A DNA stretch of 12,045 nt from a virus (taxonomy: Duplodnaviria; Heunggongvirae; Uroviricota; Caudoviricetes). Where the stretch lies: the IMG/VR virus record IMGVR_UViG_3300041407_000052, positions 92,348 to 104,392 of that record; one strand, 5' to 3'. Below are positions 1,785-12,045 of this stretch, piece after piece. The position numbers and the translations under genes were made by a program. Below the pieces are notes generated by a model. That model had not been told where the DNA came from. It did not search any database and was given only the letters and a program-made list of their open reading frames with translations. Each line of letters begins with the position of its first letter. Position 1 is the first letter of the stretch.

Positions 1785-3308
1785 TTAATCGAAGGGGGTT
1801 TTATGTGAGAGGTTGACACTGGCTAGAACCTGTGCCATATTAGGTACGTTGACGCGCTGAGCGAGGATTGACGTGGCATCACTGATACAGTCAACAATGT
1901 CATCGTGACCTGTCTCACCGCTTCGCTTCTTACCGTTAAAGCCTTCAAGCTCGCGGTACATGAAGCTATTGTTATTTTCAATCTTGTTTTCCAAGTCTGT
2001 TGAACAACCCTTTAGGAACTGGACATGTCCGTTCATAGCCAAAGAAGAGAAAGGACGAAAACGATCCAACTTAGATTGGGTTGCTTTCATTGTTCTAACT
2101 CTGTATCCTTTTTCACTCAACGAACGTGTGAGCAGGCTTGTTGCAACTTTGGCAGAAGCACCGGGATCGAGTGGGATAATAATCTCACAGTTCTTCCCAT
2201 CTTGCTCTGCGTTGTCGAGGATGAACTTTTCCCACTCACCATACAGGATACGACAACGACGAACATCGTGAACGAAGTAATCTCCATTCTTCAACTTGCT
2301 CATCTTCACACATGCTGTATAGTCAGGACTTGGGTTACCAGAAGACTTCAATGTACCAGCAAAGTCATATGCTCTAACTGTTCGTACAATCTCACTGGTA
2401 GATGGCTCATCAAGAGCATCTTCACCACACCACGAACGTTGGAAGTATGTGGAACCTTCTTCACGAGCGGTCCAGTCACCAAGCAGCAGACGCCTCATCT
2501 CAACATCGGGCATGGCTTCCAACTTACCTTTATAGTCAGGTTGGAGCTTCATCAACGTTGGGTTGTCTACAAGAGTACCAAGCAGCACTTGGAATGGAAT
2601 AGGTTTAACTTGATCTGTGTGATCCATAGGAAGATGTTTCTTCCCGTACTTCTCAATAAGTTCTTCTGGAGATTCACCCCAGCACATCTCTCCACCGATA
2701 CGAAGTACAAATCTTGTGATCCCGTTCTTTGCAGGATCAGCGATACCGTATTGAGGATGACCTTCTGGATGTAACCACCATTTAACCCATTCGAAAAGAT
2801 AACTGTCTGGGTCAGGGTTGCATGACAACCAAATACTTGGTTCCATCTTAGCTGATGTACGAAGACGTGAAAACAACCACCAAATGTGTTGTTCATCAGC
2901 GTGAGTTGCTTCGTCATAGAATACGTTAGAGAGTTGAAGACCTTGATACTTACGACCAGCAGCGTCGTTCTCATAGTGAGCAAATGAAACAGATGCACCA
3001 CTTGGGAAAACAATCATCTGATCTTTAATCTTTACTTTGATGTCAGGATAAACCTGAGAGTAAAGCCCGACTGCTTCTTGGAACAGTCCACCAGCTTTCA
3101 TCAAGTCGTTACTGTGTTGTCGAATACAGTAACCATTATACTTTGGATCATGCGCCCAACGTAGGTGTCGCATTAGTCCGACATAGCTTTTAGAGCTACC
3201 GGCTGCACCACCAACTACCAGAATCTTAGCATTCGACTTCAGGTATTTCTCTTGGAAGGGAGATTGAGGACGCACCATGTTAACTTCATGTTTTACATCC
3301 ATGGTCAT
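1785..3308 (-). CDS. terL: Terminase large subunit
   Basis: 507 aa. Walker A-like GGAAGSSKS, Walker B VFYDEA, coupling motif SCNP, C-terminal RNase H-like nuclease acids (RAYDFA, HDDIVDCISD). Confidence 0.95.
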   Translation of the reverse strand: MTMDVKHEVNMVRPQSPFQEKYLKSNAKILVVGGAAGSSKSYVGLMRHLRWAHDPKYNGYCIRQHSNDLMKAGGLFQEAVGLYSQVYPDIKVKIKDQMIVFPSGASVSFAHYENDAAGRKYQGLQLSNVFYDEATHADEQHIWWLFSRLRTSAKMEPSIWLSCNPDPDSYLFEWVKWWLHPEGHPQYGIADPAKNGITRFVLRIGGEMCWGESPEELIEKYGKKHLPMDHTDQVKPIPFQVLLGTLVDNPTLMKLQPDYKGKLEAMPDVEMRRLLLGDWTAREEGSTYFQRSWCGEDALDEPSTSEIVRTVRAYDFAGTLKSSGNPSPDYTACVKMSKLKNGDYFVHDVRRCRILYGEWEKFILDNAEQDGKNCEIIIPLDPGASAKVATSLLTRSLSEKGYRVRTMKATQSKLDRFRPFSSLAMNGHVQFLKGCSTDLENKIENNNSFMYRELEGFNGKKRSGETGHDDIVDCISDATSILAQRVNVPNMAQVLASVNLSHKTPFD

Positions 3309-4780: not shown

Positions 4781-4808
4781 AACAAAAAGCCCGCTCGTGG
4801 CGGGCTTC
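4781..4808 (-). terminator. Rho-independent terminator of the tRNA operon
   Basis: AAGCCCGC-cacga-GCGGGCTT then TTTGTT on minus strand. Confidence 0.85.
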
Positions 4809-4985
4809 TATTAATCGTTACTATCTCATTACCGTCTAATGACTCGACCTTGTTATAGGTTAGTTGAACTGCCACGTTAGTGGTCACGATGTCGTTCTTA
4901 CAATTCCTTGTCGGGTAATTGTTTTGTTTAGTCGCTTGAAGCGCCGTTCAAGTCTTTCTTTTACGGGACAGCACCCGGACTAGCT

Positions 4986-5072
4986 TGGAGGAAGATATCC
5001 GATTTGAACGGATGGAGCTGTTACACTCGGTAGTTTTCAAGACTACTGCAATAGCCGCTCTGCCAATCTTCC
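4986..5072 (-). tRNA. tRNA-Ser(UGA)
   Basis: Acceptor GGAAGAT/ATCTTCC, anticodon arm GTAGT-CTTGAAA-ACTAC, long variable arm, T loop TTCAAAT, encoded CCA; discriminator U. Confidence 0.92.
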
Positions 5073-5185
5073 GTAATTTCAAGGTTACCTGTGAGGACTT
5101 TTACCCCAAGAGCCTAGTGGCCTACCGACGACGCAGAACCCTCACGCCGACATGCTTTCTTACTTGATCGTCACCAAGTACTGTT

Positions 5186-5259
5186 TGGTGTGAGATAGGG
5201 ATTTGAACCCTTCCTTCATTTTCACAGAATGAATACCTTAGCCATCGGTCTGTCTCACC
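5186..5259 (-). tRNA. tRNA-His(GUG)
   Basis: G(-1) then GTGAGA/TCTCAC, anticodon loop CTGTGAA in TCATT/AATGA stem, T loop TTCAAAT, CCA; A73 instead of C73. Confidence 0.82.
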
Positions 5260-5390
5260 ATTGTTTCTTCTAATGCTTCTTTCAGTATCTGACGATCTAA
5301 TCTGCATTCTTTCCAACTAAGTCTTGAACAGCAACGACAATCAGCTGGTCCCATATCTTTAAGTTGACGACGACGCATTTTAACTTTCAT
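5238..5390 (-). CDS. 50-aa Cys/Arg-rich micro-ORF whose 3' end overlaps tRNA-His
   Basis: Below track cut-off. AAAGGAG-6nt-ATG; MKVKMRRRQLKDMGPADCRCCSRLSWKECRLDRQILKEALEETMVRQTDG; stop TAA (5240-5238) lies in the tRNA-His D loop. Confidence 0.6.
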   Translation of the reverse strand: MKVKMRRRQLKDMGPADCRCCSRLSWKECRLDRQILKEALEETMVRQTDG

Positions 5391-5406
5391 CAAATACTCC
5401 TTTAAT

Positions 5407-5481
5407 TGGTCACCATACTTAGATTCGAACTAAGCCTTCATCGTCCCAAACGACGTGTGCTACCGCTAACACTATATGGAG
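5407..5481 (-). tRNA. tRNA-Pro(UGG)
   Basis: Acceptor CTCCATA/TATGGTG (U2.U71 mismatch), anticodon arm CGTCG-TTTGGGA-CGATG, T loop TTCGAAT, A73, CCA. Confidence 0.9.
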
Positions 5482-5482
5482 T

Positions 5483-5565
5483 TGGTGGATCAGGTTGGAC
5501 TCGAACCAACAATGCATTCAGCGGGGAGTTACAGTCCCTTGGGTTACCAATTACCCTACTGATCC
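5483..5565 (-). tRNA. tRNA-Tyr(GUA)
   Basis: Acceptor GGATCAG/CTGATCC, loop CTGTAAC, extended variable region, T loop TTCGAGT, A73, CCA; 1 nt from tRNA-Pro. Confidence 0.93.
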
Positions 5566-5567
5566 TT

Positions 5568-5660
5568 TTGTTATTAGGTAGCTCTACCGACTGAGCTTAC
5601 TCCGGTGTATACCACCAGAAATGGGACTCGAACCCATGCACACCAAGCAACTGTTAACAA
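5568..5660 (-). ncRNA. Circularly permuted tRNA-like RNA, module 2 (YrlA/Y-RNA-like topology)
   Basis: 5'->3': TTGTTA..TTGGT, GTGC, T arm ATGGG-TTCGAGT-CCCAT, closed acceptor TTCTGGT-ggtatac-ACCGGAG, TAA, D arm GCTC-AGTCGGTA-GAGC, T, ACCTA..TAACAA. Confidence 0.72.
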
Positions 5661-5731
5661 GCGATGTTCTCAAGCTTGCTTGAATTAGATCCGGTACACA
5701 ACAGTCTGACTAGTATCGAGAGTTGAATACC

Positions 5732-5812
5732 TGTTGAGTTTACCTGATCGCAGCCGGTTTGCAACTTCCGGTCAAGGAAGGTGGGAATCGAACCCATATC
5801 AGTTATCTCACA
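5732..5812 (-). ncRNA. Circularly permuted tRNA-like RNA, module 1 (YrlA/Y-RNA-like topology)
   Basis: 5'->3': TGAG-ataa-CTGA, T arm ATGGG-TTCGATT-CCCAC, closed acceptor CTTCC-ttgacc-GGAAG, D arm TTGC-AAACCGGCT-GCGA, TCAG-gtaaa-CTCA. Confidence 0.58.
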
Positions 5813-5965
5813 TAATGGGGCGTATACCCCGTTCGCTATTGTTGACTTATGTCGAATAGCATTTCTACGAATTTGGATTCCAATAATAGGCTGTACGTTT
5901 ATCCTATTCTACTATTAATCCACGTTGGTCAACCCGTGGTAGTTTTCTACTTTCAACATAGAATT

Positions 5966-6039
5966 TGGTGCCCCAGTAGAGAATCAAACTCCAATCCCCG
6001 GATTACAAAACCGGTGCATCATCACAATGCTTCAAGGGC
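5966..6039 (-). tRNA. tRNA-Thr(UGU), non-canonical
   Basis: Acceptor GCCCTTG/CTGGGGC, D stem GCAT/ATGC, loop TTTGTAA in CCGG/CCGG stem, T loop TTTGATT, CCA. Confidence 0.8.
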
Positions 6040-6098
6040 ATGACGGTTGTAACGTAATGTCGAACTGTGTCAACACCAGAGGATACAACGCTGTTGTT

Positions 6099-6173
6099 TG
6101 GCAGTCCATACGAGAATTGAACTCGTCCCTCCGGCGTGACAGGCCAGTGTACTAACCGATATACTAATGGACT
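6099..6173 (-). tRNA. tRNA-Asp(GUC)
   Basis: Acceptor AGTCCAT/ATGGACT, anticodon arm CTGGC-CTGTCAC-GCCGG, T loop TTCAATT, G73, CCA. Confidence 0.92.
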
Positions 6174-6180
6174 TTATTAC

Positions 6181-6315
6181 TTAGGAAACAACCTTACCAG
6201 TGTAAGGATTCTTACCTTTCAAACCTTTGTTCGGATGACCTTTAGTCTTCTCAGACTTAGTAGTCGATTTCTCAATCTTGGTGTGTTCTTTAGTTGCATC
6301 GTAAAACTTAGTCAT
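6181..6315 (-). CDS. 44-aa Lys-rich micro-ORF inside the tRNA cluster
   Basis: Track gives start 6375, but a strong GAGGAG RBS precedes ATG 6315: MTKFYDATKEHTKIEKSTTKSEKTKGHPNKGLKGKNPYTGKVVS (11 K). Confidence 0.6.
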   Translation of the reverse strand: MTKFYDATKEHTKIEKSTTKSEKTKGHPNKGLKGKNPYTGKVVS

Positions 6316-6448
6316 CTTTACAGCTCCTCTTTTGTTTACAACGAATACATTGAATGTCTCAAGCTCTAACCGCATCCGTGATACGCTTGTATAGGTTGAC
6401 TACTTAAGAACAAGTTCACGGAACATAAACTTGCACTTCATTCAAATT

Positions 6449-6524
6449 TGGCTCCCCCGGCTGGATTCGAACCAGCGACCTAACGGTTAACAGCCGTTTG
6501 CTCTACCAACTGAGCTACAGAGGA
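6449..6524 (-). tRNA. tRNA-Asn(GUU)
   Basis: TCCTCTG/CGGGGGA acceptor, canonical D arm, loop CTGTTAA, T loop TTCGAAT, G73, CCA; close to enterobacterial tRNA-Asn. Confidence 0.95.
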
Positions 6525-6530
6525 ATTGTT

Positions 6531-6604
6531 TGGTGCGGGCGACAGGTTTCGAACCTGCAATATTTGGGTGGAAGCCAAAGGTGTTACCGTTACACTACGC
6601 ACGC
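6531..6604 (-). tRNA. tRNA-Gly(UCC)
   Basis: GCGTGCG/CGCCCGC acceptor (U4.C69 mismatch), TTTGG-CTTCCAC-CCAAA, T loop TTCGAAA, A73, CCA. Confidence 0.9.
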
Positions 6605-6613
6605 TTGTTCTTT

Positions 6614-6690
6614 TGGTGAGTCCCACGGGGTACGATCCCGCATCTTATCTGTTATGAGCAGACAGCATTAACCAATTATGCTAAAGACCC
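6614..6690 (-). tRNA. tRNA with CAU anticodon (elongator Met or lysidine-dependent Ile2)
   Basis: GGGTCTT/GGGACTC acceptor, GTCTG-CTCATAA-CAGAT, T loop ATCGTAC, CCA. No initiator hallmarks (no 3 G-C anticodon pairs, no C1.A72). Confidence 0.85.
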
Positions 6691-6702
6691 ATTTACTAAT
6701 TT

Positions 6703-6779
6703 TGGCAGGTCACCACAGATTCGAACTGCGTCCACAAGGATTTGGAATCCCGTATGCTTCGCCATCACAACCGTGACCT
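6703..6779 (-). tRNA. tRNA-Trp(CCA)
   Basis: AGGTCAC/GTGACCT acceptor with G73, loop TTCCAAA, T loop TTCGAAT, CCA; irregular D arm and G8. Confidence 0.85.
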
Positions 6780-6926
6780 ATTTGTTTGTTGTTACGATTT
6801 GGAAGGCATGAACACTAACATCAAATCACAACAAGCAATCCTTTACATCACCTGATTCCTTAGAGGAGAGGGCTAAGTACCAATTCATCAGTAAAGGAAG
6901 TGCTCTTTTGTCTGGATATACCGACC

Positions 6927-6958
6927 ATTATATAGAAACACTCCAATACTGTCAATAC
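6927..6958 (-). promoter_or_regulatory. Perfect-consensus sigma70 promoter of the tRNA operon
   Basis: GTA-TTGACA (6955-6950), 17 bp, TATAAT (6932-6927). Confidence 0.88.
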
Positions 6959-6992
6959 CTGTTTTCAAATTATTTAAAATCCTTCGTATTCC

Positions 6993-7160
6993 TCAAACAT
7001 CATAGTTCCTTCGCTTATAAGATGAGTTTTTGTTTGTCAATGATTCAAACGCATATTCAAACTTGAAATCCTTACCTTCACTAAGGTCTTCCGATTCCAG
7101 TTCATCATTAACCTCTTCCATTTCTTTCATTACATTTTCATAGCTATCGGGCTTATTCAC
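6993..7160 (-). CDS. 55-aa acidic hypothetical protein
   Basis: Below track cut-off. GAGG RBS, GTG start: MNKPDSYENVMKEMEEVNDELESEDLSEGKDFKFEYAFESLTNKNSSYKRRNYDV. Confidence 0.6.
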   Translation of the reverse strand: MNKPDSYENVMKEMEEVNDELESEDLSEGKDFKFEYAFESLTNKNSSYKRRNYDV

Positions 7161-7194
7161 ATTGTTCGTCCTCTGGTTAGTTAAAGAAGACTAC

Positions 7195-7227
7195 ACTCTA
7201 CACCTAATAGTATGAAAATGTCAATAC
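7195..7227 (-). promoter_or_regulatory. Sigma70-like promoter for the 55-aa ORF
   Basis: GTA-TTGACA (7224-7219), 18 bp, TAGAGT (7200-7195). Confidence 0.5.
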
Positions 7228-7228
7228 G

Positions 7229-7423
7229 TTACAACAATGCTTCGATTAGGTCATAACCATCGTCAGCTGACAAGTCTCGAAGCCAAACTCTATATAGAAT
7301 TTCTTTGATTTCAGATTGTCGGTCACCATGAGTTCCATTTGCATACACACCATGCTTTGGACAATCAGGGTTCTCAGAAATCCATGGACCACCGATTAAA
7401 TAACATTCATATTCACAAAGCAT
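7229..7423 (-). CDS. Small Cys/His-containing hypothetical protein (64 aa)
   Basis: Start reassigned from 7444 to ATG 7423 (GAGGA RBS, TAATG overlap with upstream stop); MLCEYECYLIGGPWISENPDCPKHG... Confidence 0.7.
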   Translation of the reverse strand: MLCEYECYLIGGPWISENPDCPKHGVYANGTHGDRQSEIKEILYRVWLRDLSADDGYDLIEALL

Positions 7424-7722
7424 TAATCGTTCCTCATAACCCATTTAACAGCTTTGACAATCACATCACCATGACAGCTTTGTGGTTTGCAGAAACAACC
7501 AAGACGTTTGCCTGATAATGATCGCAACATATCTTGGGTTACAAATCCTTGTTTCATTTGATGCCACAGATAATCCTTGTAGGAGGAAACAGCTTCGTCA
7601 CGTGTTTCAACCTTGTACAACGCTTTGGTTTCAGGAAGGTGACTGAATGGATTACCCCATGCTGATCCTCTTCCGACATAGACATCATACTCCTCTTTGT
7701 ATTTATTGACCACGGTGCACAT
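7423..7722 (-). CDS. DUF4326-like protein
   Basis: VYVGRGSAWGNPF...LSGKRLGCFCKPQSCHGDVI pattern. Start reassigned to ATG 7722 because a separate ORF ends at 7727. Confidence 0.8.
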   Translation of the reverse strand: MCTVVNKYKEEYDVYVGRGSAWGNPFSHLPETKALYKVETRDEAVSSYKDYLWHQMKQGFVTQDMLRSLSGKRLGCFCKPQSCHGDVIVKAVKWVMRND

Positions 7723-7726
7723 TATG

Positions 7727-7906
7727 TCACCACTTCTCAAACGAGCTACAAGGGTCATAGACGCCGCTCATTGTGAATTCTGGGTCATGATCCACCTTAA
7801 AGGTTAAAACGTCTCCTGTGTGGGTTGTGAGGCTTGCTGAACCACATGAAGCATCTGCCAACACTGCACCACCGTGAAAGTTGTTATCACCAAAATCAAA
7901 ACTCAC
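7727..7906 (-). CDS. 59-aa hypothetical protein
   Basis: Below track cut-off. GAGGT RBS, GTGA overlap with upstream stop: MSFDFGDNNFHGGAVLADASCGSASLTTHTGDVLTFKVDHDPEFTMSGVYDPCSSFEKW. It fills the gap exactly. Confidence 0.65.
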   Translation of the reverse strand: MSFDFGDNNFHGGAVLADASCGSASLTTHTGDVLTFKVDHDPEFTMSGVYDPCSSFEKW

Positions 7907-8151
7907 AAAATTACCTCGCTTTCTACAACCGAATATTTATCCAAACCATTTTGCATACGTTCAATCAATGAACCCTCCAGACCCATTTCATGAAGCTTGA
8001 CAGACGCATTACGATAGTGGTCATGTTCTATAGCCTGACACCAGTCACGTAGGTACTCAGCAGTCTCAAGTCTCGCACATGAATGCATAACACCATTACC
8101 ATGACTACCGTTAATTACAACATTCCACGTATACATAATCCCATCATTCAT
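7903..8151 (-). CDS. Hypothetical protein (82 aa)
   Basis: GAGG RBS, overlaps neighbouring genes in operon fashion. Confidence 0.72.
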   Translation of the reverse strand: MNDGIMYTWNVVINGSHGNGVMHSCARLETAEYLRDWCQAIEHDHYRNASVKLHEMGLEGSLIERMQNGLDKYSVVESEVIL

Positions 8152-8617
8152 CTCGAAACCTCACTGATTGTAAAAATTCATCATCGTATTCACAGTATTC
8201 GATGTCGTTTGCTTGTGGTTCCATGATACTCGGTTCTACAACCTTGTCAACCACTATGTTCACTTCTTTTTGAATTCTCTTGGTTCCAAAGAAATTAATG
8301 TCAAGGTTCACACTCTTATACACCCAACTCTTGTTACCATTAGATCTTGGTTTGTCAGCATCCAGTACACCGCCATCATACATCTTCTTTAACGATCTTG
8401 CTACAGCCTTCCATTCCAAACCGATTGCATTACCAATGGTGACCTGTGTTTCATAATGACCACATCCTGAATTGTTGAAGTACGTGGTTCTTGCGTACAT
8501 GTAGATCAGTACCAGCTTATCAACAGCAGTAAGGTCTACTGGTTCACCTGTTGATTTACTTACGAATCCTGTAGCACTCATCAGATTCTTAGGTGCCTTG
8601 TAAAACTCACTACTCAT
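8144..8617 (-). CDS. Winged-helix DNA-binding protein (HTH_36/replication-initiator-N-like)
   Basis: LTAVDKLVLIYMY...ETQVTIGNAIGLEWKAVARSLKKMYDGGVL fits a wHTH pattern; acidic C-tail. The track's GTG 8647 lies next to the -10 box, so ATG 8617 is preferred (start uncertain). Confidence 0.68.
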   Translation of the reverse strand: MSSEFYKAPKNLMSATGFVSKSTGEPVDLTAVDKLVLIYMYARTTYFNNSGCGHYETQVTIGNAIGLEWKAVARSLKKMYDGGVLDADKPRSNGNKSWVYKSVNLDINFFGTKRIQKEVNIVVDKVVEPSIMEPQANDIEYCEYDDEFLQSVRFRDE

Positions 8618-8647
8618 TTTCCTACACTCTGTTCTGTAATTCCACAC

Positions 8648-8676
8648 ACCATACCCATGAGAGGATGTGTACGCAA
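8648..8676 (-). promoter_or_regulatory. Leftward sigma70-like promoter
   Basis: TTGCGT (8676-8671), 17 bp, TATGGT (8653-8648), A-rich upstream. Confidence 0.55.
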
Positions 8677-8681
8677 GCTTT

Positions 8682-8722
8682 TCTTTCTTACTACTTATCT
8701 GTCTTACTCAGTCTTTCTTACT
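8682..8722. repeat. Three TCTTACT repeats in a pyrimidine/AT-rich tract
   Basis: TCTTACT at 8686, 8702, 8716; TCTTTCTTACT at 8682 and 8712. Confidence 0.75.
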
Positions 8723-8726
8723 TCAG

Positions 8727-8802
8727 ACCCTCTGAGGGTGGTGACACACCTACCTGACAGGGTGGTGACATTGTATTTGACCTACCTCAGAGGGTGGTGA
8801 AA
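8727..8802. repeat. Three AGGGTGGTGA direct repeats plus 10-bp inverted repeat
   Basis: Copies at 8735, 8759, 8791; the last two are preceded by CCTACCT-N3. CCCTCTGAGG (8728-8737) is the exact reverse complement of CCTCAGAGGG (8785-8794). Confidence 0.85.
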
Positions 8803-8809
8803 ATATTCG

Positions 8810-8837
8810 TTGACATGATGAATAGAAGGTGTAGAAT
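8810..8837 (+). promoter_or_regulatory. Rightward sigma70-like promoter
   Basis: TTGACA (8810-8815), 16 bp, TAGAAT (8832-8837). Confidence 0.65.
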
Positions 8838-8861
8838 TGCCGACATCAACCAATTAGGAGA

Positions 8862-9056
8862 ATGATTGTGGTACGAGTAGTAGAGAAAGCCCGTTGCAAA
8901 CAAACCACTTGTAATAAATGCAGAACTGTATTAGAGTACGAATTCTCCGACATTGTAACAACTGTTGAGCGAGATTATACAGGATGTGGTGACAGCGTTT
9001 CACGAATCCATTGTCCTGTTTGCAATAGTCACCCTGCCGTTTCATCGCGTTTCTGA
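8862..9056 (+). CDS. Zn-ribbon small protein
   Basis: 64 aa, AGGAG RBS, CNKC...CPVC. Confidence 0.78.
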   Translation: MIVVRVVEKARCKQTTCNKCRTVLEYEFSDIVTTVERDYTGCGDSVSRIHCPVCNSHPAVSSRF

Positions 9057-9067
9057 GGAGATACAAA

Positions 9068-10204
9068 ATGCAAGTAATCGAATTTATCAAACAGAACGGT
9101 ACTGATGCAGAAAGCATCGAAGCAGGTCTGAAAGCTTTGACGGAACAGTTCGCAATCAGTGTCAAGAAAGTGGATGACCTTCTGGTTCTGAACTACAACC
9201 AGATTGATAGCCCGAAGACTCATCCTTATGTGATGGAATGTCGCAGTCTGATTCTGGAAGCCGAAACACTGAATGTTGTTAGTCGTTCCTTTGATCGCTT
9301 CTTCAACTATGGTGAGGCATTGAATGTCATGCCTGAGATTGACTGGAAGCGTGCTGTAGCCTTTGAAAAGGTTGATGGTAGCCTGATTAAGATATACAAC
9401 CACAAAGGTCACTGGTACATCTCTACTAAGGGTACAGCATATGCAGACAGTGATTGCATGGGTTATGGTGTTACATTCAGGGAATTGGTTTGGAAAGCAA
9501 TCGGTGTAAGCAATGACGAAGAGTTCCAGCTGAAAATGCGTATGTGCATCTTTGATGAATCTGTAACTTATATGTTCGAACTGACATCAGTTGAGAATCG
9601 TGTTGTCAAGCGTTACGATGGATACAAACTACATTTCTTGGGTGCACGGTGCAATGACACGGGTATGTATGTTTGTGAGGAAGAGAAGAACTGGTTCCTT
9701 GATCCACACAGCGATATTGACTTTATTCACTACCCTAAAGAATACCGATTCAACACCGTTGAAGAATGTCTGCGTACTTCTCGTGAGTTGAAAGACCTTG
9801 ACGAAGGTTACGTTATCTACCAAGATGGTGTTCCGATTGCAAAAGTGAAGTCGCCAGCTTATGTTGCTGTGCACCATATTCGTGGTGAAGGTTTGAATCC
9901 TAAGCGAATTATGCAACTGGTACTAGTGAATGAGCAAGATGAATACTTGCAATACTTCCCAGAAGATCGTGAAGTGTTTATTCCTTATGTTGAAGCTAAG
10001 AATACACTTGACCATCAACTACATGCTGTGTACAATTCTTGCAAATGGATTGATAATCAAAAAGAGTTTGCCGTTCACGCTCAACAATATCCTTTTAAAT
10101 CAGCATTGTTCCAAGCACGAGCTAAGCAGATTGGTGTTCTTCAAGCATTCAACGATCAGCGCGAAAGTTACAAAATGGAAATTCTCAAGGAGTATGTAGT
10201 TTGA
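9068..10204 (+). CDS. rnlA: RNA ligase, T4 Rnl1 family
   Basis: 378 aa; motif I EKVDGSL, MFELTS (III), EGYVI (IV), KVKS (V); GAGGAG RBS. Confidence 0.92.
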   Translation: MQVIEFIKQNGTDAESIEAGLKALTEQFAISVKKVDDLLVLNYNQIDSPKTHPYVMECRSLILEAETLNVVSRSFDRFFNYGEALNVMPEIDWKRAVAFEKVDGSLIKIYNHKGHWYISTKGTAYADSDCMGYGVTFRELVWKAIGVSNDEEFQLKMRMCIFDESVTYMFELTSVENRVVKRYDGYKLHFLGARCNDTGMYVCEEEKNWFLDPHSDIDFIHYPKEYRFNTVEECLRTSRELKDLDEGYVIYQDGVPIAKVKSPAYVAVHHIRGEGLNPKRIMQLVLVNEQDEYLQYFPEDREVFIPYVEAKNTLDHQLHAVYNSCKWIDNQKEFAVHAQQYPFKSALFQARAKQIGVLQAFNDQRESYKMEILKEYVV

Positions 10205-10599
10205 AAGGTTATGTAAATGTGCACGTTGATCAAATCAATGAAGCAGTTGCTGGGTTCAATAAACAACGTGCTGCTGGTAAAGTTATTCGAGATAAAGGTA
10301 TTGAACTGTACTACCAAAAGTATTTCACAGATGGTAGTTGGTTAACCAAATGGTTGAATCGAAACCGCACACCGATTCAATTTGCTAGAAAGAATGTTCC
10401 AGCATTTGGTAGCTGGGATGATTTATTTCACTCAGTGTTGACAACTGAAGAAAATGATCTTCTTGGTTGGTGGGCATGGAACAACAGCGACCATAAGATT
10501 CAACCTCTTAAATCACTTGTTTCACAATCAGCAACTGGGTTCGTACTGGTTGATAATGAAATGGCAACAATGATCGAAAATTATAGGAGTTACAAGTAA
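10201..10599 (+). CDS. Hypothetical protein (132 aa)
   Basis: TTG start overlapping ligase stop (TTGA), GGAG RBS; abuts PseT gene. Confidence 0.72.
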   Translation: MKGYVNVHVDQINEAVAGFNKQRAAGKVIRDKGIELYYQKYFTDGSWLTKWLNRNRTPIQFARKNVPAFGSWDDLFHSVLTTEENDLLGWWAWNNSDHKIQPLKSLVSQSATGFVLVDNEMATMIENYRSYK

Positions 10600-11478
10600 T
10601 TGAAAGCGTTTATTACAGTTGGTGTAAGTGCAAGTGGTAAAACCACATTTGCAAATGAGCTTGTTGCTCAAGGTTTCCGTGATATTAATCGGGATTACAT
10701 TCGATTCAATGTCGTATGTCCGGGTTCGAACTGGAGCAACTACAAGTTCAATGGTAAGAACGAAAAGGAAGTAACCCAAATCCATGAACAAATGATCTTG
10801 GAAAGTTGGGCTCGTGAAGAGAATATTGTAATCAGCGATACCAACTTGAATGCGGGTCGTCGTAACAATCTGGTGCGAACGCTCCAAGACCTTGGCTATG
10901 TTGTTGAAATCAAAGAGTTTCATGTTGCACAAGAGACGGCGTACAAGCGTGACCGTCTGCGACCAAATGGTGTTGGTGAAGGTGTAATCTATCGTCAGTT
11001 CAAAGATTACCATGATTATGTCGGGCGTCTGACATATGTTGCTGATGAAAGTTTGCCGAAAGCTGTTATCTTTGATGTTGACGGAACCATTGCAAGCATG
11101 GATGGTCGTGGTCCATTTGAATGGAAACGTGTTGGTGAGGATAACCCTCGTGAATTCGTAATTCAAATGTTGCGTAACTATGCAATGATGGGTTACATTA
11201 TCATTATCTGCTCAGGTCGAGATGATATCTGCCGTGGCGAAACCATCGAATGGTTGAATGAAAAAGTAGGCGAGATGTTTTATCATTTGTTGTATATGCG
11301 TAAGAATGGTGACTTCCGAAAAGATAATGCTGTAAAAGAAGAAATCTTCTGGACACACCTCGCACATAAGTATAACATTGTTGCCTGTGTTGATGACCGA
11401 CCACAAATGATTCGTCTTTGGCATGAATTGAAGATTCCAAACGTGATCGCTGTCGCTGATCCGTACATTGAGTTTTAA
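10600..11478 (+). CDS. pseT: Polynucleotide 5'-kinase/3'-phosphatase, T4 PseT family
   Basis: P-loop GVSASGKTT, INRD, RxxxR (RDRLR); HAD phosphatase DVDGT, SGR, DDR; TTG start. Confidence 0.93.
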   Translation: MKAFITVGVSASGKTTFANELVAQGFRDINRDYIRFNVVCPGSNWSNYKFNGKNEKEVTQIHEQMILESWAREENIVISDTNLNAGRRNNLVRTLQDLGYVVEIKEFHVAQETAYKRDRLRPNGVGEGVIYRQFKDYHDYVGRLTYVADESLPKAVIFDVDGTIASMDGRGPFEWKRVGEDNPREFVIQMLRNYAMMGYIIIICSGRDDICRGETIEWLNEKVGEMFYHLLYMRKNGDFRKDNAVKEEIFWTHLAHKYNIVACVDDRPQMIRLWHELKIPNVIAVADPYIEF

Positions 11479-11487
11479 GGAGAAGGT

Positions 11488-11685
11488 ATGAATAACCCTA
11501 AGTTTGGAAAAGGTGATGCGGTTCGAATTACATATAACAGTTGTTATCATGGTTTTGAAATTGGTGAAATTGTAACTATTTCATCCATGACTGACTGGGG
11601 TAGTTATTTTGGATACGGTAATGATGGTGAAAAATGGGCGTTCGATGACGACGACTGCGAAGCAATCCAAGGAGTTCTGCAATGA
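11488..11685 (+). CDS. Small hypothetical protein (KOW/SH3-like start PKFGKGDAVRI)
   Basis: 65 aa, AAGGAG RBS. Confidence 0.72.
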   Translation: MNNPKFGKGDAVRITYNSCYHGFEIGEIVTISSMTDWGSYFGYGNDGEKWAFDDDDCEAIQGVLQ

Positions 11686-12045
11686 TTAAGTACAATGTAG
11701 GTAATATCCAAACCACTGTTCGTCAATGGAAGTTTCCTGACGGTTGTGTTGGTGTGGATATCCAAGTGGGTAGTCAGGCAAAAGACTTTACAAACGATCT
11801 GGTTAAAATCACTTGCATCTTTGGCAGTGAAGGGTTTACAATCAATGACGACATCATTGCACTTGCGATGGTTGTTGATTCTGTAAAACGTCAATATCCT
11901 GTTGCTAAGTTGGAACTGGAACTACCTTACATTCCATATAGTCGCCAAGATCGTGCTGTGAACGCTGGTGAGCCTAACAGCTTGAAAGTAATAGGAAAGA
12001 TGATCAACGCTATGGGTTTCTCATCAGTGTTCGTCCTTGACGCCC
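11682..12045 (+). CDS. prs: Ribose-phosphate pyrophosphokinase-like protein (5' part; runs off window end)
   Basis: Not in track. AAGGAG RBS, ATGA overlap; translated by hand MIKYNVGNIQTTVRQWKFPDGCVGVDI...ELPYIPYSRQDRAVNAGEPNSLKVIGKMINAMGFSSVFVLDA. FPDG and PYxxYxRQDR are PRPP-synthetase signatures. Confidence 0.88.
   Translation, partial: MIKYNVGNIQTTVRQWKFPDGCVGVDIQVGSQAKDFTNDLVKITCIFGSEGFTINDDIIALAMVVDSVKRQYPVAKLELELPYIPYSRQDRAVNAGEPNSLKVIGKMINAMGFSSVFVLDA

What the first reader, a model, noticed from the sequence alone, without database searches (positions are those of the whole stretch)
4986..12045. Possible integrated translation/NAD counter-defence region: tRNA array + tRNA mimics + Rnl1/PseT + Prs-like enzyme
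Seen: 10 tRNAs, two tRNA mimics and, across one divergent control region, RNA ligase, kinase/phosphatase and a Prs-like gene. Known: T4 Rnl1 plus PseT heal and seal tRNA cut by the PrrC anticodon nuclease, and bacterial Y RNA/Ro60 genes are linked to RtcB RNA repair. Inference: replacement tRNAs, decoy mimics and repair enzymes may work as one system against tRNA-targeting immunity. Here the Y-like RNAs would be paired with a Rnl1/Pnkp rather than an RtcB repair pathway.
Basis: inference. Interest (0 to 1): 0.7.

Follow-up and report, generated by a model that had tools for sequence, protein, structure and literature searches.

The report
Phage tRNA, RNA-repair and NAD island
This end of an uncultured Pseudomonas-type phage genome packs spare tRNAs, two back-to-front tRNA look-alike RNAs, tRNA-mending enzymes and an NAD-rebuilding pathway side by side. 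The parts are real and mostly known anti-immunity tools, but nothing shows that they work as one machine.

Summary
The minus strand carries one promoter-to-terminator tRNA operon (6955 to 4785) with 10 tRNAs. Eight pass Rfam; His and Trp are non-canonical. It also holds two circularly permuted, acceptor-sealed tRNA look-alikes. The plus strand carries intact Rnl1 and Pnkp and the first 121 residues of a Prs-like gene cut by the contig end.

Three refinements:
- The Prs-like gene is most likely Adps of NARP1. Its Namat partner lies at the other contig end and matches solved phage Namat at E 1e-101.
- Mimic A is the swappable head of a covariation-supported structured RNA of about 220 nt, found in only seven related phages. 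Mimic B is an optional add-on.
- The genome has no Ro60, no RtcB and no Ro-binding stem, so the Y RNA reading is not met.

On linkage, nine relatives carry tRNA array, Rnl1, Pnkp and NARP1 together, and three more distant ones lack all of them, which fits a single accessory island. But phiPMW and SYP keep the enzymes without the mimics, and distant Rnl1/Pnkp phages have neither tRNAs nor NARP1 nearby. The best reading is co-located, parallel counter-defences.

A Band-7 gene with its own tRNA-like RNA lies 31 kb outside the window. Earlier scan notes describe similar mimics on other DNA.

The parts
6927..6955 (-). Promoter of the tRNA operon (TTGACA-17-TATAAT)
   Evidence: 12 of 12 consensus match. 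A consensus scan only, not shown to be active.
6703..6779 (-). tRNA-Trp(CCA), non-canonical D region
   Evidence: Read from the sequence. Aligns with the Trp genes of L015, L016, phiPMW and SYP, with an invariant anticodon arm. Missed by ARAGORN and by Rfam.
6614..6690 (-). tRNA-Met(CAU)
6531..6604 (-). tRNA-Gly(UCC)
6449..6524 (-). tRNA-Asn(GUU)
6181..6315 (-). 44-aa lysine-rich ORF inside the tRNA operon (phrog_11200)
   Evidence: PHROG match at E 3e-16. DNA conserved in all relatives, including phiPMW and SYP.
6099..6173 (-). tRNA-Asp(GUC)
5966..6039 (-). tRNA-Thr(UGU), with a U-U pair next to the anticodon loop
   Evidence: Rfam 45.1 bits. ARAGORN misses it here but calls it in relatives.
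5654..5872 (-). Conserved scaffold RNA of about 220 nt (helices P1 to P5), released between tRNA-Thr and the next tRNA or tRNA-like element
   Evidence: Alignment of 7 phages. In the scored structure, 97.3% of cells are paired and 13 of its 43 pairs show compensatory change, against 4.8+/-1.6 in shuffles (0 of 500). No Rfam family matches.
5732..5812 (-). Mimic A: a permuted tRNA-elbow head held by helix P3 of the scaffold (T arm, short hairpin, G-rich D-like stretch)
   Evidence: The T arm is kept in all 7 sequences, while the rest of the head is replaced between relatives.
5570..5651 (-). Mimic B: a near-perfect permuted tRNA body with a sealed 8-bp acceptor stem and an open anticodon end
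   Evidence: The minimum-free-energy fold gives the three-way junction. Rfam YrlA positions 16-93 at 19.1 bits. Present only here and in L015.
5483..5565 (-). tRNA-Tyr(GUA), 4 nt after mimic B
5407..5481 (-). tRNA-Pro(UGG)
5238..5390 (-). 50-aa Cys-rich ORF with a ribosome-binding site; overlaps tRNA-His by 21 nt
   Evidence: Read from the sequence. The DNA is kept in L015. No family match.
5186..5258 (-). tRNA-His(GUG), weak call
   Evidence: ARAGORN only. Not found by Rfam at E<=10.
4986..5072 (-). tRNA-Ser(UGA)
4785..4809 (-). Intrinsic terminator that ends the tRNA operon
   Evidence: 10-bp stem followed by a T run
7423..7758 (-). DUF4326 protein, predicted in print to remove phosphates from the ribose of ADP-ribose derivatives
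   Evidence: PF14216, 1.3e-23. The prediction is in PMC9503650.
8144..8647 (-). First gene of the leftward unit (weak DUF6945 match)
8729..8800 (+). Three CCTNNNAGGGTGGTGA repeats in the divergent intergenic region
8810..8837 (+). Rightward promoter-like site (TTGACA-16-TAGAAT)
   Evidence: 11 of 12 consensus match
8862..9056 (+). 64-aa protein with CxxC motifs (phrog_2834), first gene of the rightward unit
9068..10204 (+). Rnl1-type RNA ligase (378 aa)
   Evidence: PF09511. phrog_562 covers residues 33-366. Matches T4 Rnl1 structure 2C5U at 1.9e-11, with the KxDG lysine motif kept.
10201..10599 (+). 132-aa ORF of unknown function between Rnl1 and Pnkp
   Evidence: No Pfam or PHROG family. Present only here and in L016.
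10600..11478 (+). Pnkp: 5'-kinase plus 3'-phosphatase (292 aa)
   Evidence: Matches T4 Pnkp structure 1LTQ at 1.4e-46. The P-loop, DVDGT and DDR motifs are kept.
11488..11685 (+). 65-aa ORF (phrog_10201)
11682..12045 (+). N-terminal 121 residues of a Prs-like protein, probably Adps of NARP1; cut by the contig end
   Evidence: PF13793 and phrog_619. The full-length orthologue in L012 is 279 aa. Namat lies at genome positions 484-2289.

Best explanation
This stretch is an accessory, probably early-expressed island of a roughly 104-kb phage related to Pseudomonas phages phiPMW and SYP (phiPMW is classified as Plaisancevirus). It gathers several counter-measures that act in parallel, not as one machine.

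1. A tRNA operon driven by a sigma-70 promoter supplies 10 phage tRNAs. These replace depleted or cut host tRNAs and read the A-ending codons of this AT-rich phage.
2. Rnl1 and Pnkp heal and seal tRNAs cut in the anticodon loop, as in phage T4.
3. Adps (cut here by the contig end) and Namat rebuild NAD+ from ADP-ribose and nicotinamide (NARP1). A DUF4326 enzyme may trim phosphorylated ADP-ribose.

The two tRNA mimics are heads of the YrlA type without a Ro60 handle. Mimic A is an exchangeable tRNA-elbow module on a conserved RNA of about 220 nt. That RNA is inferred to be cut out of the tRNA precursor by the normal tRNA-processing enzymes. Mimic B is an optional, nearly complete tRNA body with a sealed acceptor end.

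Inferred, not shown: the mimics present an uncleavable, unchargeable tRNA shape to a factor that reads the tRNA elbow. That factor could be a host tRNA-targeting nuclease, which would make them decoys, or a partner protein.
For: Components:
- tRNAs.
- Promoter and terminator bounding the operon.
- Rnl1 and Pnkp with catalytic motifs kept.
- The Nampt-like gene matches SpbetaL1 Namat (9W5X, 9W5W) at E about 1e-101, against about 1e-43 for ordinary Nampt.
- The gene order Prs-like then Nampt-like defines NARP1. The orthologous Prs-like proteins are 279 aa (L012 and SYP) and 287 aa (phiPMW), the short Adps form.

Separate units:
- The tRNA operon has its own promoter.
- Rnl1 to Adps overlap or abut on the other strand.
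- The operator-like repeats occur only in front of the rightward unit.

Island behaviour:
- 9 genomes carry tRNA array, Rnl1, Pnkp, Prs-like and Nampt-like genes together.
- Three relatives at 59-73% TerL identity have none of the three enzyme families searched (Rnl1, Pnkp, Nampt-like) and 0-1 tRNA.

Independence of the mimics:
- Scaffold and heads are absent from phiPMW and SYP.
- Head A is replaced between relatives.
- Head B is in 2 of 9 relatives.

The scaffold RNA is real.

Codon use: CCA is 49% of Pro codons and ACA is 37% of Thr codons.
Against: - No expression, processing or phenotype data exist for this phage.
- The all-or-none pattern of the island is a single split in a small clade, so it does not exclude a functional tie.
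- The phage also carries a Band-7 gene with its own tRNA-like RNA. In bacteria that pair is reported next to RNA ligases (bioRxiv 10.1101/312249). This leaves room for tRNA-like RNAs acting with the repair enzymes.
- The decoy role of the mimics is inference only.
- Adps is incomplete in this assembly.
Confidence: 0.68

Rival explanations
1. One integrated system. The mimic RNAs work directly with Rnl1 and Pnkp, as cofactors, substrate mimics or decoys that buy time for repair. The replacement tRNAs and NARP1 are co-regulated parts of the same response.
For: - The order tRNA array, small ORFs, divergent region, Rnl1, Pnkp, Prs-like, Nampt-like is kept in 9 genomes whose Rnl1 identity falls to about 50%.
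- The block is absent as a whole from three more distant relatives.
- Print precedent: tRNA-like RNAs (YrlA, b7a-tRNA) lie next to RNA ligases, and YrlA has been proposed as a competitive inhibitor of an anticodon nuclease (PMC7790460; bioRxiv 10.1101/312249).
- The phage also has a Band-7 gene with a tRNA-like RNA.
Against: - The mimics are missing from phiPMW and SYP, which keep all the enzymes.
- Mimic B is in 2 of 9 genomes.
- The mimics and the enzymes sit in different transcription units with different promoters. The operator-like repeat is not shared.
- The nearest Rnl1 homologues outside the clade (Paraglaciecola GD virus 1, Vibrio phage vB_CoeS_P1) have Pnkp but no tRNAs and no annotated Prs or Nampt gene nearby.
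Confidence: 0.15
2. Housekeeping reading. The tRNAs serve codon supply for an AT-rich phage in a GC-rich host. The mimics are remnants of tandem tRNA duplication, kept as processing punctuation or stabilising ends for the spacer RNA, with no role in immunity.
For: - Phage third-position GC is 0.38. It makes heavy use of CCA, ACA and UCA, the codons read by the phage U34 tRNAs Pro, Thr and Ser.
- The array content varies from 6 to 16 or more tRNAs between relatives.
- Tandem tRNAs score as well as the mimics on the YrlA model, as expected if the mimics derive from tRNA dimers.
- The scaffold is always flanked by a tRNA or tRNA-like element that would define its ends.
Against: - Four of the tRNAs (Asn, Asp, His, Tyr with G34) duplicate what any host has. 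Gly(UCC) reads only 16% of Gly codons.
- The T arm of head A is kept in all 7 sequences, and a GG-containing D-like stretch persists (one G invariant), while everything around them is swapped. That points to selection for the tRNA elbow itself.
- The neighbours are dedicated anti-defence genes.
Confidence: 0.25
3. True Y RNAs. The scaffold or the mimics bind the host's own Ro60 (Rsr) and redirect PNPase or the repair pathway.
For: - The head architecture equals the YrlA tRNA-like domain.
- The scaffold has an invariant AGCGAACG between P1 and P2. This is one mismatch from the GNCGAAN0-1G motif proposed for Rsr binding (compared).
Against: - The phage has no TROVE gene.
- The YrlA score is 19 bits against a gathering score of 69, and only the tRNA-like part aligns.
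- Mimic B has no room for a handle.
- The motif is short and inexact.
- Whether the host has Rsr could not be tested.
Confidence: 0.07

Closest known systems
Phage T4 Pnkp (PseT) and Rnl1 tRNA repair, which counters the PrrC anticodon nuclease
   Same: Both enzymes are present, adjacent and full length, with catalytic motifs kept. As in T4, the phage also encodes its own tRNA cluster.
   Different: Identity to the T4 proteins is low (E 1e-11 for Rnl1). The genes lie about 2 kb from the tRNA operon, with a few small ORFs between them and NARP1, which is not the T4 layout. This array has no tRNA-Lys, the PrrC target. The target nuclease here is unknown.
NARP1 (Adps plus Namat), phage NAD+ reconstitution (bioRxiv 10.1101/2024.02.11.579819; PMC12774641; PMC13586617)
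   Same: A Prs-like gene is followed within a few genes by a Nampt-like gene whose best solved relatives are phage Namat. The orthologous Prs-like proteins have the short Adps length of about 280 aa.
   Different: In this assembly Adps is cut after residue 121, and an HNH endonuclease ORF sits before Namat at the other contig end. The pair is in one gene string with Rnl1 and Pnkp. No activity has been tested.
YrlA, the tRNA-like Y RNA bound by Ro60/Rsr in rsr-yrlBA-rtcBA operons (Rfam RF02553; PMC4201824; bioRxiv 10.1101/312249)
   Same: The same permuted order: T arm, loop-closed acceptor stem, D arm, entered and left through an anticodon-stem-like helix. No CCA end and no anticodon loop.
   Different: No Ro60 and no RtcB in the genome. 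No recognisable Ro-binding strand on mimic B. The Rfam score is far below threshold. Mimic A is embedded in a larger unrelated scaffold RNA. The mimics lie inside a tRNA operon.
Phage tRNA arrays that bypass tRNA-targeting immunity (PMC10264068; PMC12409363; reviewed in PMC9503650)
   Same: A multi-tRNA operon in a lytic-type phage beside repair enzymes. PMC9503650 lists own tRNAs plus RNA ligases as the standard phage answers to tRNA cleavage.
   Different: No evidence here that these tRNAs carry nuclease-resistant anticodon loops. Part of the set is also explained by codon supply.
b7a-tRNA with a Band-7 protein, predicted next to RNA ligases (Burroughs and Aravind 2016, as described in bioRxiv 10.1101/312249)
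   Same: The same phage has a Band_7 gene directly preceded by a promoter and a tRNA-like gene. The gene is conserved in the clade, and the tRNA-like RNA was found upstream of it in four relatives.
   Different: The pair lies about 31 kb outside the window and is not adjacent to Rnl1 or Pnkp. I could not read the original paper. The tRNA-like RNA there is not permuted.

Membership tests
Rnl1 (T4 RNA ligase 1 family, PF09511) | Nucleotidyl-transferase motif I with the lysine nucleophile (KxDG) | tested here: met
   EKVDGS aligns with T4 TKEDGS. PF09511 match at 64.6 bits, above the 28.3 cut-off.
Rnl1 (T4 RNA ligase 1 family, PF09511) | Full length, including the C-terminal domain that gives T4 Rnl1 its tRNA preference | tested here: inconclusive
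   The phrog_562 profile is covered over positions 30-361 of 377. The alignment to the solved T4 protein stops at residue 310.
T4-type Pnkp | Kinase P-loop (GxxGxGK[ST]) together with the HAD phosphatase DxDGT motif in one protein | tested here: met
   GVSASGKTT and IFDVDGTIA align with T4 Pnkp structure 1LTQ at E 1.4e-46 over residues 2-278.
NARP1 (Adps plus Namat) | A Nampt-like protein of the Namat type, not ordinary Nampt | tested here: met
   Best solved matches are 9W5X and 9W5W (SpbetaL1 Namat) at about 1e-101, against about 1e-43 for Nampt. The selectivity-clamp residues were not inspected.
NARP1 (Adps plus Namat) | A Prs-like protein lacking the C-terminal alpha11-alpha12 module (about 280 aa) | tested here: inconclusive
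   The window copy is cut at residue 121. Orthologues in L012 and SYP are 279 aa and in phiPMW 287 aa, which fits the signature described in PMC13586617.
NARP1 (Adps plus Namat) | Adps and Namat within ten genes of each other | tested here: met
   Two or three small ORFs lie between them in L012, SYP and phiPMW. In this genome they sit at opposite contig ends.
YrlA / bacterial Y RNA (RF02553) | Permuted tRNA-like domain (T arm, closed acceptor stem, D arm) | tested here: met
   Mimic B. Mimic A meets this only in part, because its D arm is degenerate.
YrlA / bacterial Y RNA (RF02553) | Score at or above the Rfam gathering threshold | tested here: not met
   19.1 bits against 69. Tandem tRNAs score higher.
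YrlA / bacterial Y RNA (RF02553) | A Ro60-binding element (GNCGAAN0-1G near the 5' end) and a neighbouring TROVE/Ro60 gene | tested here: not met
   No TROVE match in the 104-kb genome. Mimic B has no flank for such an element. The scaffold has only a one-mismatch AGCGAACG.
tRNA (RF00005) | Cloverleaf scoring above the gathering threshold | tested here: met
   Eight genes score 44.7-70.8 bits. His and Trp do not reach the model at E<=10 and rest on ARAGORN or on orthology.
RNA paired with DUF7873 (known only from earlier notes of this scan) | A DUF7873 protein gene next to the RNA | tested here: inconclusive
   No DUF7873 hit among 15 ORFs of 200-309 aa scanned against Pfam, nor among the window ORFs. 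The rest of the genome was not scanned, and I did not have the accession.

The most novel reading that the evidence does not exclude
Mimic B is the topological inverse of a tRNA: its acceptor end is sealed and its ends are open exactly where anticodon nucleases cut and where Rnl1 seals. It could therefore be a designed substrate of the neighbouring Pnkp and Rnl1. Joining its ends would make an exonuclease-proof circular decoy. After opening by RNase P and CCA addition, as shown for M. smegmatis YrlA, it could even give a working tRNA. The open ends could form the loop A-U-G-U-U-G-C with a GUU (Asn) anticodon, and the base after the 3' acceptor strand is G. Likewise, the scaffold RNA with its exchangeable elbow head could be a programmable decoy whose head is swapped to match the tRNA-targeting defences of each host.
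Probability: 0.08. Interest if true: 0.8.

Novelty: new variant of a known kind. Interest (0 to 1): 0.5.

Why it matters
If the neighbours really cooperate, this would be a compact phage toolkit aimed at the two commonest abortive-infection strategies, cutting tRNAs and burning NAD+. It would also give the unexplained YrlA-type tRNA mimics a testable job outside the Ro60 system.

Even on the sober reading, three results are useful:
- The annotated Prs and Nampt genes of the phiPMW and SYP phage group (phiPMW is a Plaisancevirus) are most likely NARP1.
- The tRNA operons of this clade hide a structured RNA supported by covariation, with a swappable tRNA-elbow head.
- The same phages carry a Band-7 gene with its own tRNA-like RNA.

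These are defined targets for deletion and pull-down experiments in Pseudomonas phages.

Tried and rejected
- **Rfam.** The whole window, the operon alone and the 461-nt gap were searched. No family covers the scaffold. The only matches were sub-threshold YrlA and 12-bit tmRNA T-arm hits.
- **The YrlA model as a general detector of sealed heads.** Rejected, because tandem tRNAs score higher than mimic B and 13 of 14 control genomes ring. For this reason no wide co-occurrence survey was run.
- **Scaffold in phiPMW and SYP.** nhmmer found none.
- **Pattern scans for the scaffold.** Viral contigs gave the same six contigs twice. Metagenome contigs gave one contig already known. Bacterial genomes gave none.
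- **blastn of mimic B against named phages.** No match.
- **Other genes in the genome.** TROVE and RtcB: none. DUF7873: not seen in 15 mid-sized ORFs.
- **A tmRNA-like tag reading of the scaffold** (GCG AAC ...). Rejected, because the frame has no conserved stop and the head varies in length.
- **A shared operator between the tRNA operon, the Rnl1 unit and the Band-7 unit.** Rejected, because the AGGGTGGTGA repeat is confined to 8729-8800.
- **The Burroughs and Aravind 2016 paper.** Not held.
- **Joining the contig end to its start.** This does not restore Adps. The frame stops 38 nt into the start, so some sequence is missing.

Full report
**Where the window lies.** The window is the right-hand 12 kb (92348-104392) of a 104,392-bp viral contig with 42% G+C. 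The large terminase and portal genes are at 1785-3308 and 253-1773. The nearest named relatives are Pseudomonas phages phiPMW (genus Plaisancevirus) and vB_PpS_SYP, with Rnl1 about 51% identical. Six closer uncultured contigs were found (L012-L016, L020).

**The tRNA operon.** On the minus strand a perfect TTGACA-17-TATAAT site (6955-6927) and a strong terminator (4809-4785) bracket 2.1 kb.
- ARAGORN finds eight tRNAs.
- Rfam adds Thr(UGU).
- A Trp(CCA) gene at 6703-6779, with a deviant D region, aligns with the Trp genes found at the same place in relatives.
- Two small ORFs with ribosome-binding sites sit inside the operon. The 44-aa one is phrog_11200 and is conserved in every relative.

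**The two mimics.** Mimic B (5570-5651) folds on its own into closing stem, T arm, 8-bp loop-sealed acceptor and D arm. It aligns with positions 16-93 of Rfam YrlA, the tRNA-like domain only, at 19.1 bits against a threshold of 69. It ends 4 nt before tRNA-Tyr, so there is no room for a Ro-binding stem. Mimic A (5732-5812) has the same order of parts but only a G-rich stretch in place of a D arm.

**Mimic A is part of a larger RNA.** It sits inside an RNA of about 220 nt (5654-5872) that is conserved in seven phages.
- The consensus has five helices. In the structure scored, 97.3% of cells are paired and 13 of its 43 pairs show compensatory change, against 4.8+/-1.6 in shuffles (0 of 500) and at most 3 when partners are slid.
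- Helix P3 holds the head.
- Across relatives the T arm is kept, with a GG-containing D-like stretch (one G invariant), while the rest of the head is replaced. The tRNA elbow therefore looks like the selected feature.
- The RNA always lies between a tRNA 3' end and the 5' end of the next tRNA or tRNA-like element. I infer from this that ordinary tRNA processing releases it.
- It matches no Rfam family, and it was found nowhere else in viral, metagenome or bacterial collections by pattern.
- Mimic B occurs only here and in L015. L012 and L013 have an unpermuted tRNA-like gene with a 15-nt anticodon loop in its place.

**The enzymes.** Rnl1 keeps the KxDG lysine motif. Pnkp keeps the P-loop and DVDGT motifs and matches T4 Pnkp at 1e-46. 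Rnl1, a 132-aa ORF, Pnkp, a 65-aa ORF and the Prs-like gene overlap or abut, which suggests one operon.

**The Prs-like gene and NARP1.** The Prs-like gene runs off the contig. The contig start holds an HNH endonuclease ORF followed by a 601-aa Nampt-like gene.
- That Nampt-like protein matches the solved phage Namat (9W5X, 9W5W) at about 1e-101, against about 1e-43 for ordinary Nampt.
- In relatives the Prs-like protein is 279-287 aa. This is the short form said to mark Adps.
- It lies two or three genes before Namat.
- A DUF4326 gene on the other strand (7423-7758) has been predicted to process phosphates on ADP-ribose.

**Is it one system?**

Evidence for linkage:
- The order tRNA array, small ORFs, divergent region, Rnl1, Pnkp, Prs-like, Nampt-like is kept in nine genomes.
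- Three more distant terminase relatives (one 96% complete) have no Rnl1, no Pnkp, no Nampt-like gene and 0-1 tRNA.
- The block therefore behaves as one accessory island, although this amounts to a single evolutionary split.

Evidence against a mechanistic unit:
- The mimics and the scaffold are absent from phiPMW and SYP, which keep all the enzymes and 6-9 tRNAs.
- The tRNA content varies from 6 to more than 16 genes.
- The tRNA operon has its own promoter. The three operator-like repeats (8729-8800) occur only before the rightward unit.
- The nearest Rnl1 homologues outside the clade have Pnkp but no tRNAs and no annotated Prs or Nampt gene nearby.

Part of the tRNA set also fits plain codon supply. 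CCA is 49% of Pro codons and ACA is 37% of Thr codons in a phage whose third-position GC is 0.38.

**The Y RNA comparison.** The genome has no TROVE gene and no RtcB. The scaffold carries an invariant AGCGAACG, one mismatch from the short motif proposed for Rsr binding, but this is weak evidence. The idea that tRNA-like RNAs serve RNA ligation beyond RtcB, or act as competitive inhibitors of an anticodon nuclease, is already in print as a hypothesis.

**A related pair outside the window.** While scanning mid-sized ORFs for a possible partner protein, I found a Band_7/SPFH gene at genome positions 59888-60796. It is directly preceded by a promoter and a 103-nt tRNA-like gene with an enlarged anticodon arm.
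- The Band_7 gene is found in all seven scaffold-bearing phages and in SYP. It is absent from phiPMW and from the three distant relatives. The tRNA-like RNA was seen upstream of it in four relatives (L054, L057-L059), with changed acceptor sequences.
- It looks like the predicted Band-7-associated tRNA that accompanies RNA ligases in bacteria.
- It gives a candidate protein partner for tRNA-shaped RNAs in this phage, but the pair is not adjacent to Rnl1 or Pnkp.

**Verdict.** This is a real counter-defence island built from known parts (tRNA supply, T4-type repair, NARP1). The tRNA mimics are a new, Ro-less variant of the YrlA design, and their link to the repair enzymes is unproven. The evidence in this clade shows at least that the link is not obligatory. 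Earlier notes of this scan describe similar Ro-less permuted mimics on other DNA. I used them only as leads.

Noticed in passing
genome outside the window: G000 59888-60796 (minus) and 60837-60939 (minus); L009 552-1460 and 1501-1603: A Band_7/SPFH protein gene is preceded on the same strand by a TTGACG-17-TATAAT site and a 103-nt tRNA-like gene. In that RNA a 43-nt stem-loop replaces the anticodon arm. The Band_7 gene is present in 8 of 9 Rnl1-bearing relatives, and the tRNA-like RNA was seen upstream of it in four of them. The pair resembles the predicted Band-7-associated tRNA.
   Followed up: partly
window 4899-4924 (minus): A hairpin, ACAATT-ACCCGACAAGG-AATTGT, lies between the last tRNA and the operon terminator. 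It is identical in phiPMW and SYP although their proteins are only about 50-78% identical. It does not resemble the annotated phage-specific promoters of phiPMW.
   Followed up: partly
window 8729-8744, 8753-8768, 8785-8800 (plus): Three direct repeats, CCTNNNAGGGTGGTGA, lie just upstream of the rightward promoter. They are unique in the genome and are kept in L012, L013 and L015 only. They are probably operator sites. The first gene downstream is a 64-aa protein with CxxC motifs.
   Followed up: partly
window 12045 and genome 1-2289 (L038): The contig breaks inside the Adps gene. The other end starts inside an HNH_3 endonuclease ORF (2-481) followed by Namat (484-2289). A homing endonuclease insertion may have caused the assembly break.
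   Followed up: partly
window about 5700-5720 (minus), the apical loop of scaffold helix P4: The loop always shows a 6-nt palindrome: ACUAGU in six phages and UCUAGA in L016. This would allow loop-loop dimerisation or binding of a dimeric protein.
   Followed up: no
window 6181-6315 (minus): A 44-aa lysine-rich ORF (phrog_11200) sits inside the tRNA operon. It is conserved within the tRNA arrays of all relatives, including phiPMW and SYP.
   Followed up: partly
window 5873-5965 (minus): An extra spacer of about 95 nt follows tRNA-Thr and is present only here and in L012. It begins with AATTCTATG, which resembles the scaffold's own 5' end, AATTCGTAG. It may be a partial duplication.
   Followed up: no
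L012 6695-6776 (minus); also L013: An unpermuted tRNA-like gene with a CCA end, normal D and T arms, a 3-bp anticodon stem and a 15-nt loop replaces mimic B and tRNA-Tyr in two relatives.
   Followed up: partly
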